From Eledone cirrhosa (lineage: Eukaryota), in the NCBI GenBank assembly GCA_964016885.1, contig OZ024740.1:84258001-84322000 (forward strand): 64,000 nucleotides of DNA, given 5' to 3'. Every line of letters begins with the position of its first letter. The first letter of the stretch is position 1. The position numbers and the translations under genes were made by a program. Under the pieces are notes generated by a model. It was not told the DNA's origin, made no database searches, and saw nothing but the letters and a program-made list of their open reading frames with translations. Positions 444 through 63,798 of the stretch are shown in pieces.

Positions 444-486
444 ACGATGCTGATGATAGCTAATAAGCTTGAAACTAGTACATCGT
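444..486 (+). ncRNA. Minimal type I hammerhead ribozyme (family A)
   Basis: acgatg-CTGATGA-t-agct-aata-agct-t-GAAA-ctag-TA-catcgt: helix I acgatg/catcgt, helix II agct/agct, palindromic helix III, GUA cleavage triplet. Copies at 878-920 (TTGACGA) and 1304-1346 (CTAACGA) have core mutations. Confidence 0.9.
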
Positions 487-1818
487 TCCAGTGTCAGTGT
501 TGAACAAAAAGGTGACGTGGTTGCCTAAACAGGGAACGACGTAATTAGGGCTGTTTGTTTCTTTACAAACAAACAAACCGAGCATTATAATAAATGTTCG
601 GTAAACCGATACGTGCATATATATATGTGTGCATGTATGTATATATATACATACTACTGTACGTCTGTATACATATATGTATGTACGTATACATACATTT
701 AAGTAAGTGCCGTACTAAGAGTGAGAAATGAAATTTCGTTTCATTCTATTCCATTTATCGTTTTCGGTGTGCCCGGCCGACTGAACTCACTCGATATGCA
801 AATTAGGCTGCTCAGCCGTTAATATGCATAAGGAAAGTATATACTTTCAGACGTTCAACCATCTAGCAGGAAGGTATACGATGTTGACGATAGCTAAAAA
901 GCTTGAAACTAGTACATCGTTCCTGTGTCAGTGTTAAACAAAAAGGTGACGTGGTTGCCTAAACACTGTACGGCGTAATTCGGGCAGTTTGTTTGTTTAC
1001 AAACAAACAAACCGAGCATTATAATAAATGTTCGGTAAACCGATACGTGCATATATATATGTGTGCATGTATGTATATATATACATACTACTGTACGTCT
1101 GTATACATATATGTACGTATACATACATTTAAGTGCCGTACTAAGAGTGAGAAATGAAATTTCGTTTCATTCTATTCCATTTATCGTTTTCGGTGTGCCC
1201 GGCCCACTGAACTCACTCGATATGCAAATTAGGCTGCTCAGCCGTTAATATGCATAAGGAAAGTATATACTTTCAGACGTTCAACCATCTGGCAGGAAGG
1301 TATATGATGCTAACGATAGGTAATAAGCTTGAAACTAGTACATTGTTCCTGTGTCAGTGTTAAACAAAAAGGAGATGTGGTTGCCTAAACACTGTACGGC
1401 GTAATTGGGCTGTTTGTTTGTTTACAAACCAACAAACCGAGCATTATAATAAATGTTCGGTAAACCGATACGTGCATATATATATGTGTGTGCATGTATG
1501 TATATATATACATACTACTGAACGTCTATAGGTATATATGTATGTACGTATACATACATACATACATACATACATACATACATACATACATACATACATA
1601 CATACATACATACATACATACATACATACATACATACATTTAAGTAAGTGCCTTACTAAGAGTGAGAAATGAAATTTCGTTTCATTCTATTCCATTTATC
1701 GTTTTCGGTGTGCCCGACCGACTGAACTCACTCGATATGCAAATTAGGCTTCTCAGCCGTTAATATCCATAAGGAAAGTATGTACTTTCAGACGTTAAAC
1801 CATCTGGCAGGAAGGTAT

Positions 1819-1861
1819 ACGATGCTGACGATAGCTAATAAGCTTGAAACTAGTACATCGT
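1819..1861 (+). ncRNA. Minimal type I hammerhead ribozyme (family A, intact CTGACGA core)
   Basis: acgatg-CTGACGA-tagctaataagctt-GAAA-ctag-TA-catcgt. Confidence 0.9.
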
Positions 1862-2240
1862 TGATGTGTCAGTGTTGAACAAAAAGGTGACGTGGTTGCC
1901 TAAACACTGTACGGCGTAATTCGGGCTGTTTGTTTACAAACAAACAAACCGAGCATCATAATAAATGTTCGGTAAATCGATACGTGCATATATATACGTG
2001 TGCATGTATGTATATATATATACATACTACTGTACGTCTGTATACATATATGTATGTACGTATACATACATACATACTTGCATTTATATATATATATATA
2101 TATATATATATATATATATATATATATATATATATATATATATATATATATATATATATATATTTATATATATGAATATATAAATAAATTAATAAAAATA
2201 ATGAATAAAAACAAAGAAACAGTTCCTTATATTAAAAAAT

Positions 2241-2380
2241 TCATCATTTTACGATCGTTTCTAGGATAAATATGTGCGTGTTTTGGTATGTATATTATAT
2301 AGATGTATGTAAAATGTTTACAAACTATCAGAGGGAATATACAAACCTACACATATATATGCTGTCTTCACAAATAATGA
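2241..2380 (-). ncRNA. Type I HHR with long helix II in PLE 3' pLTR (C3 position is G)
   Basis: Minus strand: tcattattt-GTGAAGA-[about 100 nt foldback]-GAAA-cgatcg-TA-aaatgatga; 9-bp helix I, palindromic helix III. Confidence 0.6.
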
Positions 2381-3109
2381 TATTTGTTTATTGAAAAAAA
2401 CCAACAAAGATTTAATATAATAGGTCTGTTTGGGAACAGGTTTTGAATTGACCAATAGAAAGGTAGTAAGTGGTCAAGATGATACAATAGTAGTAATTGA
2501 ATTTTTATTTAGGGGTAGAGGAAAGCAGATTTCAGTTTTGAATGGAAAGAGTATTTTGAATGAAAAGATTACTTTGGGATGAAAATAGGTCAAACCGGTG
2601 AAAAATAGACGAAAATTTGATGTTATAAAAGAATATTGCTAGTGTTAAAATCTAAGGAGAATAAAATTTTACGATAAATGTGTTAGTGAAAAATATCAAT
2701 CTTGTTTAAAACATAAGGAATTTACATCAATAAAAAGAAAATAAATTAATTTAATTGATAGGTATATTTATATTGATAAATTTATATTAATTCATATAGA
2801 TATGATAAATAAGAGTTAGATGTATTTGAAAAAACTTGTTAAAAGCGAAGGAAAAAAAATATAATAATAATAATAATTGGGGGGGGGGATAAATGTATTA
2901 GTGAGAAATAACAAATTTATATAGATTACAAGGAATATAGATTCATAACCTGAAATTAAAATAGTTTATATGTATACTTATTGGTATAAATTTTAGGAAA
3001 AGATAGCTGAAAAGGGAAATAAAATTATGCAGTTCATTAGTAGTAGAATATTAATTATAGGTTAACTAATTTTAAAAAAATGTTATTATAATAATTTGTA
3101 AAGTGTATA

Positions 3110-60305: not shown

Positions 60306-61112
60306 AAAAGATGTAAAATAAGAAAATTTTTGAAAAAAATTTTTAAAAAATTAACTTACTTACTTAAATTTACACTCCAACTAATTAGTTTCTGCAATGG
60401 GATAAAGACAGTTACGTAATGAACTGTTGAGAATTTCATTGCGTCATCAGGGAGATCATTCTCAGCCACGTCTCCAGGCAATGCGCGGACACTGGGGACT
60501 CATATAAAAATTATAATAATTCGGTAAATGGAACAGCTATCGAGGACTGGATTCCAGTTACTGAAAATTCACACTGCTACTGGTCATATGGCCGATTCTA
60601 AAGAATCAATCACGTGACACAGAGGCTAGTCAGTAGGAATGGGATGGTAAGATGACAGACGCCTACTAACACCCCCAACAAATTTAGAAGTGGTTTTGGC
60701 AGGTTTGCTCGACAAATCAGTGATTTGGAGATAAATATAGATAATTTAATATATCTACTAACATAAGCGCACAGATGTACGCTAATGCCAGCAAATACAC
60801 AGGTTATGTCATAGTACCTAGGTGGTTCAATGCAGGAGGATGCAGAACAATAATATAAAAGACGTAAAATAAGAAAAATTTAAAAAAAAACTTTTTTTTA
60901 AATTAACTTACTTACTTAAATTTACACTCCAACTAATTAGTTTCTGCAATGGGATAAAGACAGTTACGTAATGAACTGTTGAGAATTTCATTGCGTCATC
61001 AGGGAGATCATTCTCAGCCAAGTCTCCAGGCTAGGTACTATGACATAACCTGTGTATTTGCTGGCATTAGCGTACATCTGTGCGCTTATGTTAGTAGATA
61101 TATTAAATTATC
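60306..61112 (-). mobile_element. Family G partial tandem (552-nt unit) with two HHRs and inverted 5' piece
   Basis: HHRs at 60375-60454 and 60927-61006 (-); 61031-61112 inverted. Confidence 0.85.
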
Positions 61113-62591
61113 TATATATATATAGACATATATATATAGAGATATATATATATATACATATACATATATATATATATATATATATATATATATATATATA
61201 TATATATATATATACATATATATATATATACATTATATATATATGTATATATATACATATATATATATACATATATATATATATACATATATATATATAT
61301 ATATACATATATATATATATATACATATATATATATATATATATACATATATATATATATATACATATATATATATATATACATATTTATATATATATAT
61401 ATACATATTTATATATATACATATATATATATATACATATATATATATATATATACATATATATATATATATACATATATATATATATACATATATATAT
61501 ATATATACATATATATATATATATACATATATATTTTTATATATATATATATATACATATATATTTTTATATATATATATATATACATATATATATATAT
61601 ATACATATATATATATATATATATATACATATATATATATATACATATATATATATATATACATATATATATATATATATATATATATACATATATATAT
61701 ATATATACATATATATATATATATATATATATACATACATATATATATATATATATATATATATATATATATATATATATATATATATATATATATATAT
61801 ATATATATATATACATATATATATATAGATATATATATATATACATATATATATATGCATATATATATATATACATATATAAATGAAAGGTATAGAAAAC
61901 ACTGCAGCAAAAAGCGAAACAGCATTCCATAATATATAAGTGACTCTAGCGTCAAAATGGGAAAAATAGTTAGCGTAAGATGTGGGAAAAATAATTCAAA
62001 CTCGTCTCAAAGAGAATCAGGATATAAATTCCTCCACAGAATGTAGTGAAATCCAGGGAAACATCAATAGAGCCTTAACTCATGATAAAATAAAGTCTAA
62101 AATACTTATCCTTCAATTTGGAAAAACTTCAAATGCTCTGTATAGTCTTAAAGACTATTTCATGAAAACTATATATATATATATATATATATATATACAT
62201 ATATATATATACATATATATATATATATATATATATACATATATATACATATATATATATATATATATATATATATATATATATATATATATATATATAT
62301 ATATATATATATATACATATACATATATATATATATATATATATATATATATATATATATATATATACATATATATTTATATATATTAAGTTAGATCGCA
62401 GATATAAAAGACAGCGAGAAGCGAAAACCAACCAAACAGTGAGTCTGTTCTGTTATTAATTCTGGCAATATTACACAAATATGACCCTCCCCAAGTATAT
62501 ATATATATATATATACATATAAATATACATATATATATATAGATATATATATATATACATATATATATATATATATACATATATATATATA

Positions 62592-62848
62592 TAAAGAATT
62601 AATATATCTACTAACTTAGTAGTTCTATGCAGGGGGATGCAGAACAATTATATGAAAGACGTAAATAAGAAAGTTATGAAAATTGACTTACTTACTAAAA
62701 TTTCACTCCAACTAATTAGTTTCTGATGACGTAAGGCTTCTCTACAGTATTACATAACTGTATTTATCCCCTTACAGAAACTAATTAGTTGGAGTGAAAT
62801 TTTAGTAAGTAAGTCAATTTTCATAACTTTCTTATTTACGTCTTTCAT
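62592..62848 (+). mobile_element. Diverged family G palindromic fragment with HHR lacking its 5' helix I strand
   Basis: CTGATGA-c-gtaagg...ccttac-a-GAAA-ctaattag-TT-ggag at 62723-62794. Confidence 0.75.
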
Positions 62849-63117
62849 ACATATATATATATATACATATATATACATATATATATACATATATATATAT
62901 ATACATATATATATATATATATACATATATATATATATACATATATATACATATATATATATATACATATATATATATACATATATATATATATATATAC
63001 ATATATATATATATACATATATATATATATACATATATATATACATATATATATACATATATATATATACATATATATATATATATATGTAAGTATGCAT
63101 GTATGCATGAAAATTAT

Positions 63118-63798
63118 GCATGAAAATTAACGGCTGAGCAGCCTAATTTGCATATTGAGTGAGTTAAATCGGTCAGGCATACCGAAAACGATAAATTGAA
63201 ACAAAATGAAAACGAAATTTCATTTCTCACTCTTAGTATGGCACTTACTTAAATGTAAGTATGCATGTATACGTACATACATATATGTATACAGACGTAC
63301 AGTAGCATGCACATATATATATATATACATATATACATACATATGCATACAGGTACACATACATATATGCACGTATCAGCCGTTAATTTTCATAAGGAAA
63401 GTATATACTTTCGAACGTTCAACTATCTGGCAGATGGGTAAACGGTGCTGATGATAGGTAACAAGCTTGAAACTAGTACATCGTTCCTGTGTCAGTGTTG
63501 AACAAAAAGGCGACGTGGTTGCCTTAACACCGTATGGCATAAATTCAGGCTGTTCAGTTTGTTTACAAACGAACAAAGCGACGTTATAATAAGCGCCGCT
63601 AAACTGATACGTGCATATATGTATGTGTACCTGTATGCATATGTATGTATATATGTATATATATATATATATATATGTGCATGCTACTGTACGTCTGTAT
63701 ACATATATGTATGTACGTATACATGCATACTTACATTTAAGTAAGTGCCATACTAAGAGTGAGAAATGAAATTTCGTTTTCATTTTGTTTCAATTTAT
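63118..63798 (+). mobile_element. Family A monomer with inverted 5' arm
   Basis: 63118-63377 inverted; HHR acggtg-CTGATGA...GAAA-ctag-TA-catcgt at 63442-63484. Confidence 0.85.

What the first reader, a model, noticed from the sequence alone, without database searches (positions are those of the whole stretch)
444..63484. A microsatellite-resident community of about 18 hammerhead ribozyme families (about 48 motifs in 64 kb)
Seen: most discrete inserts between (TA)n tracts carry a type I HHR fold (helix I, CUGANGA, helix II, GAAA, helix III, UH). These include coding PLEs, solo pLTRs and tandem non-coding repeats, and their helix sequences are unrelated. Known: PLE pLTRs and metazoan non-LTR retrozymes carry minimal type I HHRs, and some PLE clades prefer microsatellites. 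Inference: autonomous PLEs supply RT/GIY-YIG in trans to many ribozyme-bearing non-autonomous RNAs that target (TA)n. The density and diversity at one locus are striking, and these families may be uncatalogued.
Basis: partly seen in the sequence, partly recalled or inferred. Interest (0 to 1): 0.85.

Follow-up and report, generated by a model that had tools for sequence, protein, structure and literature searches.

The report
Hammerhead retroelements swarming TA microsatellites
This window holds about 46 hammerhead-ribozyme-shaped motifs from about 16 repeat families, some in Penelope-like jumping genes and some in protein-free repeats that carry the same insertion scars, so the protein-free ones are likely pasted into TA microsatellites by Penelope enzymes; both kinds of element are known, but here they occur at an estimated 300,000 motifs per genome.

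Summary
The motifs are real: 46 type I hammerheads (37 with intact core) in about 16 families; shuffles give about 0.2. The locus is not special. Forty evenly spaced 10-kb samples hold 44 motifs (about 1 by chance), so roughly 3x10^5 genome-wide, tied to (TA)n. Eleven motifs belong to coding Penelope-like elements (Hydra- and Neptune-type; intact Hydra ORFs exist), 24 to three non-coding tandem families (430-550 nt; retrozyme-like), 11 are unassigned. The useful result: the non-coding families carry the Penelope insertion signature. Family D has two fixed 3' ends 74 nt apart (62 of 65 ends), one at each side of head-to-head insertions (24 of 26), with short target duplications; over eight families 73 of 76 such insertions pair one short with one long end. 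This supports trans-mobilisation by Penelope RT/endonuclease, so far proposed from homology and co-occurrence. Cleavage, circles and expression are untested. Pelement hammerheads, the U3-A8 core, TA targeting and retrozymes are published. The scan noted a similar TA-inserted, Penelope-patterned non-coding repeat in another genome (e1-7810660). Verdict: new members of known kinds, with unusually clean mechanistic evidence.

The parts
377..2085 (+). Family A non-coding tandem array (unit about 430-500 nt) with short inverted arm; hammerheads 444-486, 878-920 (C3U), 1304-1346 (degenerate), 1819-1861; long 3' end at left, short 3' end at right, both into (TA)n
2184..6230 (-). Hydra-like PLE, frameshifted RT and GIY-YIG, inverted 5' arm 6021-6230; only half a hammerhead motif, not counted
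6457..6597 (.). Fold-back insert; the apparent motif at 6524 is an artefact of the inversion centre, not counted
7752..7831 (+). Hammerhead with long helix III, intact core, seen once, unassigned
10564..10911 (.). Fold-back insert of family f5; U3-A8 hammerheads 10703-10750 (-) and 10759-10806 (+)
11966..13454 (+). Neptune-like PLE2 ORF fragment (11966-13066; RT thumb, Cx4Cx2C linker, GIY-YIG) joined to a PLE3 pLTR end with U3-A8 hammerhead 13281-13318
18565..22408 (+). PLE3: broken RT/EN (19414-20700) with inverted pLTR arms; U3-A8 hammerheads 18699-18734 (-) and 22307-22342 (+); one long and one short end
22588..22632 (-). Hammerhead of family f8, the pLTR of PLE2
25753..28031 (.). Fold-back insert of family f5; U3-A8 hammerheads 25859-25906 (-) and 27843-27890 (+)
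28061..29520 (.). Fold-back insert of family F (pLTR of a Hydra-clade PLE); hammerheads 28188-28253 (-) and 29415-29480 (+)
29865..29956 (-). Degenerate hammerhead (one core change, palindromic helix III), seen once
32036..32105 (-). Hammerhead of family f11 in a 150-nt insert between TA tracts, unassigned
32652..35907 (-). Family D: 6.8 head-to-tail copies of a 466-nt non-coding unit plus a short inverted arm; seven intact hammerheads (32873-32917 to 35669-35713, period 466); short 3' end at 32652, long 3' end at 35907
36475..36567 (-). Degenerate hammerhead (C3A); a 71% relative elsewhere has an intact core
38339..41339 (.). Element with inverted ends and a Hydra-like GIY-YIG remnant (40688-41086, -); hammerheads 38383-38429 (-) and 41249-41295 (+)
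41623..41661 (+). Hammerhead of family f16 in a 250-nt insert between TA tracts, unassigned
42044..42088 (-). Degenerate hammerhead (two core changes), one relative seen elsewhere
43073..48462 (.). Hydra-clade PLE4: ORF 44107-46352 (-, split in two frames near 44750), inverted 3' arm (+) ending in (TA)n, hammerhead 48268-48333 (+)
48766..51024 (+). Two inserts of a family A variant; hammerheads 49006-49048 and 50719-50761 (one core change each)
51691..52182 (+). Family f18 insert, hammerhead 52039-52117 with long helix II
52777..52813 (-). U3-A8-type hammerhead with one core change, 76% like the PLE3 pLTR
54450..55300 (+). 3' end of a PLE2-like element (GIY-YIG remnant) with hammerhead 55000-55043 (family f19)
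55927..58740 (+). Family A head-to-head insertion: inverted arm with 56255-56297 (-), tandem arm with 56482, 56943, 57444, 57947, 58463
60047..60263 (-). Family F variant, hammerhead 60063-60127
60307..61121 (-). Family f18: 552-nt non-coding tandem unit, hammerheads 60375-60454 and 60927-61006, short inverted arm
62605..62845 (+). Family f18 variant in a fold-back insert, hammerhead 62716-62797
63114..63795 (+). Family A variant, hammerhead 63441-63485

Best explanation
The window is a TA-rich sample of a genome-wide burst of Penelope-like elements (PLEs) and of protein-free, hammerhead-bearing tandem repeats (retrozyme-like families A, D, f18) that are likely copied and inserted in trans by PLE reverse transcriptase/GIY-YIG proteins. 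Shown: each unit, coding (3.9 kb) or non-coding (430-550 nt), has one sense-strand type I hammerhead; each family has two fixed 3' ends 30-120 nt apart, downstream of the predicted cut site, that abut (TA)n; head-to-head insertions carry one short and one long end; arms cross the hammerhead up to seven times; intact Hydra-clade ORFs exist. Inferred: the endonuclease makes a staggered cut in (TA)n, both target strands prime reverse transcription, one at each of two internal start sites, and the two cDNAs join at their 5' ends, giving the fold-backs and a short target duplication. Inferred, weaker (about 0.55): tandem transcripts self-cleave, mostly as dimers through the palindromic helix III, and are ligated to circles, around which RT runs more than once. 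Which PLE clade serves each non-coding family is not shown.
For: Motifs vs shuffles; covariation in F-like motifs, 16 of 23 pairs with two-sided changes, 0 of 500 shuffles. Family D: 62 of 65 segment 3' ends at unit positions 385-394 or 462-467 (cut site 164), 55 of 65 next to (TA)4; 24 of 26 two-arm insertions pair the two ends, none pairs like with like; short end confirmed in unassembled-run contigs; 8-11-nt duplications at the three D sites whose flanks are not pure TA (L205, L216, L217). Seven families: 60 of 61 outward-facing pairs heterotypic; family A 13 of 15. Opposite arms of a D insertion share locus-specific variants (L098, L198, L203, L205, L208, L211, L213, L214; 1.2 vs 2.2 differences per 226 nt). 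No ORF over 68 codons in A, D, f18 units; circular folds z -10.9, -10.7, -6.7. Intact 745-codon Hydra-type ORFs with the same architecture. The 'tail' equals two RT start sites in a purified PLE (PMC11167929).
Against: No autonomous parent with homology to A, D or f18 was found in about 1.1 Mb of fetched loci, so the partner is inferred from scars alone. No cluster of D 5' ends at the cut site itself (position 165); 7 of 65 lie at 173-182 and 26 of 65 at 379-456, both also explained by RT stalling at hairpins. In vitro, hammerhead cleavage was not needed for PLE insertion and no reads ended at the cut site (PMC11167929); only 1 of 9 Xenopus retrozyme dimers cleaved (bioRxiv 10.64898/2026.07.22.740005). 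Several helices are weak (U-U at the base of helix II in A; 3-bp helix I in f15), and monomer folding does not give the full hammerhead for D, A, PLE3 or F. Some variants are shared by only a subset of units in one array (window, L094, L204), which fits multimeric templates or later exchange better than one monomer circle. Loci examined were the best-scoring, youngest copies.
Confidence: 0.8

Rival explanations
1. A, D and f18 are non-autonomous PLE derivatives copied from uncleaved linear multimeric transcripts; the hammerhead is kept for another step or is a passenger, and no circle is involved.
For: Unprocessed RNA was the main substrate for a purified PLE; partial sharing of variants within arrays; no pile-up of 5' ends at the cut site. 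It shares the PLE-integration step with the best explanation.
Against: Cores and helices are conserved between A and D while the rest has diverged to 67% or beyond recognition; units fold as compact circles; tandem-repeat hammerhead RNAs of mussel, coral and axolotl do accumulate as circles (PMC7229834).
Confidence: 0.35
2. All motifs are just pLTR ends of coding PLEs, and the tandem arrays are local satellites that grew from solo pLTRs by unequal crossing-over.
For: At least 5 of 16 families are coding-PLE ends and 8 are unassigned; this route is discussed in the 2026 preprint.
Against: D arrays are dispersed over many chromosomes at 98-100% identity, each with its own fixed 3' ends, inverted arm and target duplication; no D or f18 copy (0 of 33 f18; 1 of 102 D, beyond the shared extension) has a same-strand PLE ORF within its homologous upstream region.
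Confidence: 0.1
3. The non-coding families move by a DNA route (fold-back/MITE or Helitron-like rolling circle) and merely resemble PLE insertions.
For: Many inserts are near-perfect fold-backs; units contain strong hairpins near the 3' ends.
Against: The inverted arms have variable inner junctions and unequal, fixed outer ends exactly as in the coding PLEs; 5' ends are scattered, as with RT truncation.
Confidence: 0.05
4. The motifs are chance matches in AT-rich, palindrome-rich DNA.
For: One of 36 calls (6524) was a junction artefact; motifs with two core changes are at background level.
Against: 36 vs about 0.2 in shuffles; 44 vs about 1 in 400 kb; covariation; sense orientation relative to ORFs.
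Confidence: 0.01

Closest known systems
Metazoan non-LTR retrozymes (Cervera and de la Pena 2020, PMC7229834; Li, Clavereau and Pollet 2026, bioRxiv 10.64898/2026.07.22.740005)
   Same: Non-coding tandem units with one type I hammerhead each, GC under 50%, dispersed monomers to multimers, compact predicted circles, palindromic helix III, U-U at the base of helix II (as axolotl HHR_Amex2), target duplications longer than 4 bp, co-occurrence with PLEs.
   Different: Units are 430-550 nt (150-450 in the 2020 paper, 51-972 in the preprint). In the parts read, neither paper describes the two fixed 3' ends, the short/long pairing of inverted arms or (TA)n targeting for retrozymes; PLE mobilisation was argued from co-occurrence and pLTR homology. 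Here no pLTR homology was found and no RNA data exist.
Hammerheads in pLTRs of EN+ PLEs, including the U3-A8 core (Cervera and de la Pena 2014, PMC4209133)
   Same: Sense-strand type I motif near the 3' end, long helix II, extra base at its 5' side, palindromic short helix III, many families per genome, U3-A8 covariant.
   Different: Estimated 2-4.6x10^5 intact motifs in 3.0 Gb, against 2,000-9,000 per genome in that paper, over 6,000 in coral, about 5,000 in mussel and 126,247 in axolotl; my descriptor is looser, so the comparison is rough.
Hydra clade of PLEs (Craig et al. 2021, PMC8557442)
   Same: PLE4 has DKT, CxCx5C linker, no CCHH, CxxC and CxH around the EN end, C-terminal GIY-YIG, hammerhead, (TA)n insertion, tail at one end.
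   Different: RWR instead of RWK; unit 3.9 kb (described as mostly under 3 kb); described there as a small number of families outside cnidarians, here 30,244 first-look candidates with many intact ORFs.
Poseidon PAc of Anolis: internal RT initiation (Frangieh et al. 2024, PMC11167929)
   Same: Two RT start sites downstream of the hammerhead bound the genomic tail; both target strands are cut and extended; AT-rich target.
   Different: That work saw no strand preference of start sites in vitro and concerns a coding element; here 73 of 76 genomic events use each site once, also on non-coding templates.

Membership tests
Type I hammerhead ribozyme | Core CUGANGA (or compensated 3-8 pair), GAAA, UH with three helices, open helix I | tested here: met
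   37 intact-core motifs, shuffles about 0.2; covariation
Type I hammerhead ribozyme | Rfam gathering score | tested here: not met
   0 hits; family D at 37.7 of 52 bits for HH9
Type I hammerhead ribozyme | Self-cleavage as monomer or dimer | not testable with these tools
   Co-folding gives an intermolecular helix III for D and PLE3; prediction only
Non-LTR retrozyme (A, D, f18) | Head-to-tail non-coding units, one hammerhead each, GC under 50% | tested here: met
   Periods 466, about 440-500, 552; longest ORF 50, 68, 29 codons; GC 33-37%
Non-LTR retrozyme (A, D, f18) | Dispersed copies with target duplications longer than 4 bp | tested here: met
   630-1454 first-look candidates; 8-11 nt at the 3 informative D sites; not resolvable for A and f18
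Non-LTR retrozyme (A, D, f18) | Expression as unit-length linear and circular RNA | not testable with these tools
   No run on record as RNA was listed
Non-LTR retrozyme (A, D, f18) | Homology to a pLTR of an autonomous PLE (2026 preprint; seen there for 24 of 57 families) | tested here: inconclusive
   None in about 1.1 Mb of loci; whole genome not clustered
EN+ Penelope-like element | Single ORF with RT and C-terminal GIY-YIG | tested here: met
   Intact 745-codon ORFs in 5 of 5 loci translated; GIY-YIG only weakly by Pfam, E 0.002-0.03 for 2 of 13 fragments; RT read from motifs
EN+ Penelope-like element | Partial tandem pLTRs, inverted 5'-truncated arm, tail at one end | tested here: met
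Hydra clade (PLE4, PLE1) | DKT, RWK, CxCx5C linker, no CCHH, (TA)n target | tested here: met
   PLE4 sequence against the description; RWR in place of RWK
Hydra clade (PLE4, PLE1) | Placement in the RT tree | not tested
   No reference clade sequences on hand
Neptune clade (PLE2, PLE3) | Cx2-5CxxC linker and CCHH-type EN | tested here: inconclusive
   PLE2 has CIDKKCIIC and C..C/H..H; PLE3 linker missing in the window copy; Nematis not excluded
Naiad | N-terminal EN, no canonical hammerhead | tested here: not met
   EN is C-terminal in PLE1-4

The most novel reading that the evidence does not exclude
Protein-free ribozyme circles (A, D, f18), with no sequence borrowed from any autonomous pLTR, hijack a TA-targeting Penelope RNP that primes from both target strands, once at each of two fixed start sites, and rolls round the circle; this genome, with about 3x10^5 hammerheads, is the densest ribozyme landscape reported, and young family D plus the intact Hydra ORF form a ready two-component system.
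Probability: 0.4. Interest if true: 0.7.

Novelty: new member of a known kind. Interest (0 to 1): 0.5.

Why it matters
Which element mobilises animal retrozymes, and how, has been open since 2020; PLEs were named as candidates. Here the non-coding repeats bear the PLE-specific two-start-site tail and inversion, with base-level start positions, and a near-identical family (D, 98-100%) coexists with intact PLE ORFs, so the question can be put to an existing in vitro assay. The one-short-one-long rule (73 of 76) constrains the PLE mechanism itself. For annotation, hundreds of thousands of such motifs are missed by Rfam thresholds and may explain much 'unknown' and 'simple' repeat in this lineage.

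Tried and rejected
Rfam at gathering score: nothing; the E-value run was swamped by microRNA models matching TA hairpins. A first scanner that demanded a stable helix III found only 2 motifs. G3-C8 and A3-U8 cores: none above background. Motifs with two core changes are at shuffle level (4 vs mean 2.2); I kept only 42044 and 1304, on homology. 6524 rejected as a junction artefact. 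93-bp satellite: no core. PLE1 pLTR: half motif only. Weak single-change calls 8140, 15875, 34332, 47512, 17019 were left out. Naiad/selenoprotein idea dropped: EN is C-terminal. First automated end test for family A used a microsatellite-like motif and failed (7 like-pairs of 16); redone, where one of the two remaining like-pairs (L002) is heterotypic by alignment. Expression: no RNA holder listed; the four runs laid were contigs of unrecorded library type, so they say nothing on expression, circles or cut sites; a single circularly permuted contig in one run also arises from tandem DNA. 5' ends of D arms as a trace of cleavage: not separable from hairpin stalling. Literature for the newt octamer promoter was not retrievable. 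Searches for cephalopod hammerheads or retrozyme tails in print found none; the library lacks most subscription journals, Repbase and Dfam could not be searched, and the preprint's supplements were closed.

Full report
Observation. The window is AT-rich repeat DNA cut up by (TA)n tracts. Rfam gives no hit at gathering score. My own type I descriptor finds 29 intact CUGANGA and 7 intact UUGANAA motifs at score 8 or more; 50 block-wise dinucleotide shuffles give means of 0.02 and 0.18. They occupy 30 of 53 segments of at least 100 nt between TA tracts. Most have a short palindromic helix III (CUAG, CCGG, GUAC, UAUAUA, CUAAUUAG), the form described as needing dimers (PMC4209133, parts 1-2 of 4 read). 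The U3-A8 core keeps the 3-8 pair and is described in that paper. In 15 hand-picked F-like motifs 16 of 23 pairs change on both sides, 0 of 500 shuffles; these rows came from scanner hits and two probably belong to another family, so this leans towards pairing.

The locus is not special. The window lies in a 3.0-Gb assembly. Forty 10-kb stretches at round-number positions on 21 large contigs hold 44 intact motifs; ten shuffles give 0-2. The nine stretches without a (TA)8 tract hold none; motif count follows tract count (rho 0.56). The estimate is 3.2x10^5 motifs (bootstrap 2.0-4.6x10^5); 40 of 44 have a (TA)6 within 350 nt downstream, against a mean of 13.6 and a maximum of 24 for random positions in the same stretches (internal TA runs of family A inflate this a little). 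The window is about five times the mean, with 9.6% TA against 2.9%. In 1.08 Mb of non-random loci, 398 motifs form 34 clusters at 70% identity, 21 of them seen at two or more loci. Published counts are over 6,000 in 16 families for a coral, about 5,000 for a mussel and 126,247 for axolotl (PMC7229834, sections 13, 14, 17 and passages); descriptors differ. The host is probably an octopod: the only named protein relatives are from Octopus and Argonauta, at 40-56%. This is inference.

Coding elements. Four PLE-type ORF remnants lie in the window, all with a C-terminal GIY-YIG. PLE4 (43073-48462) has DKT, a CxCx5C linker, no CCHH and CxxC/CxH, the marks of the Hydra clade (PMC8557442 section 11), with RWR for RWK. 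Its RT finds 30,244 first-look candidates; of 131 scored, many have 738-755-codon open frames; five translated loci give intact 745-codon frames. Two of four full-length loci show two same-strand hammerheads 3.86-3.90 kb apart around the ORF, and three an inverted arm. PLE2 is Neptune-like by its linker, with 39,987 candidates at up to 97%. Families F, f8, f19 and the U3-A8 PLE3 family lie sense downstream of such ORFs; f15 is linked in the window only. That covers 11 motifs. Eleven more (f5, f11, f16, 52777, 7752, 29865, 36475, 42044) are unassigned.

Non-coding elements. Families A (13 motifs), D (7) and f18 (4) are head-to-tail units of about 430-500, 466 and 552 nt with one hammerhead each, no ORF over 68 codons and compact circular folds (z -10.9, -10.7, -6.7; the A value is inflated by its TA hairpin). 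They have 1039, 630 and 1454 first-look candidates. A and D are 67% alike over about 250 nt, with different helices round the same core. No homology to a coding PLE end was found in the loci held.

Insertion signature. I mapped 38 D insertions (the window's and 37 others among the best matches). Of 65 segment 3' ends, 62 fall at unit positions 385-394 or 462-467, that is 228 and 302 nt past the predicted cut at 164, and 55 abut (TA)4. Of 26 two-arm insertions, all joined 5' to 5', 24 have one short and one long end, none has two alike, two are irregular. The three sites whose flanks are not pure TA show 8-11-nt duplications. Both arms share locus-specific variants in eight loci. The same two-end pattern holds for f18, F, PLE3, f5, f16 and f11 (with D, 60 of 61 pairs) and for A (13 of 15). 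This is the PLE 'tail', often at one end only (PMC8557442 section 6), which a purified PLE explains as two internal RT start sites, with both target strands cut and extended (PMC11167929, parts 1-2 of 4). The loci are the youngest copies, and the D query favoured arms that pass the short end; this would not exclude long-long pairs.

Mechanism. Shown: motifs, units, fixed ends, pairing rule, TA adjacency, intact PLE ORFs. Inferred with high confidence: PLE proteins insert the non-coding RNAs by twin target-primed reverse transcription into (TA)n. Inferred with moderate confidence: hammerheads cut tandem transcripts, host ligase closes circles, and RT runs round them; arms of up to 6.8 units need a circle or an uncleaved multimer, and my data do not separate the two. 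Against a role for cleavage: it was dispensable in vitro, 8 of 9 Xenopus retrozyme dimers did not cleave, and D 5' ends do not pile up at the cut. No expression evidence was obtainable.

Comparison and novelty. Non-LTR retrozymes, PLE hammerheads, the U3-A8 core, Hydra TA targeting and the tail are all published. PLEs were named as likely mobilisers in 2020 (review passages) and a 2026 preprint (parts 1-3 of 5 read, supplements closed) adds co-occurrence and pLTR homology in vertebrates, stating that mobilisation is still to be characterised. In nine searches I found no report of cephalopod hammerheads or of the tail signature on retrozymes; passages of a cephalopod repeat survey mention Penelope expansions and no ribozymes (PMC8967140). 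Lunse et al. 2017 was seen only as a citation. Repbase and Dfam may already hold these families. Earlier notes of this scan describe related cases in other genomes, unchecked here; none exists for this genome. I file the elements as new members of known kinds and score 0.5, for the density and for making the retrozyme-PLE question testable at base resolution.

Noticed in passing
window 796, 1222, 1737, 56400; 33003-35799 (-): An ATGCAAAT octamer lies about 90-130 nt upstream of the cut site in most A and all D units, paired with an inverted near-copy. Newt satellite 2 is recalled (no call) to use an snRNA-type promoter with an octamer. It may be a promoter element or only a hairpin; 2 of the 56-58 kb A copies lack it.
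   Followed up: partly
window 13066-13454: The PLE2 copy lacks its own pLTR (family f8) and continues into the PLE3 pLTR end at a short shared stretch: a template switch or recombination between two PLE families.
   Followed up: partly
3' ends of families D, A, f18, F, PLE3, f5, f16: By eye, most ends are followed in the element by 2-5 nt of TA alternation, so the target primer may pair briefly with the RNA; PMC11167929 reports no homology. Not tested statistically.
   Followed up: no
window 41586-41815 and L164-L178: Many f16 copies invert at the same short palindrome about 35 nt upstream of the hammerhead, suggesting a fixed 5' end or a fold-back master copy.
   Followed up: no
window 35644-35750 (-): Family D extends helix I into a stem of about 30 bp with an internal loop; A and D share a GGUA just upstream of helix I, recalled as like the tertiary-contact loop of schistosome hammerheads.
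   Followed up: partly
window 2184-2367, 5794-5977, 6021-6102: The Hydra-like PLE1 pLTR keeps GAAA-CGAUCG-UA and an upstream CUGAUAG/CUGAUAU in two subfamilies but no clear helix I: decayed, or an unusual variant.
   Followed up: partly
window 8295-9770: 16-copy 93-bp satellite, 96% identical, without a hammerhead core.
   Followed up: partly
window 30980-31980 (-); 13653-13850 and 16391-16538: A broken non-LTR RT fragment (RTE-like, recalled) and two copies of a SINE-like repeat (octopus-type, recalled).
   Followed up: no
L005, L006, L007, L012, L020, L023, L033, L034, L036, L037, L042, L049, L069, L220: Many further hammerhead families absent from the window, several with U3-A8 cores or long stable helix III that might cleave as monomers.
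   Followed up: no
run X1: Summed contig depth on the D unit is 2-6x10^5 over most of its length in a run of unrecorded library type; could be high copy number or abundant RNA.
   Followed up: no
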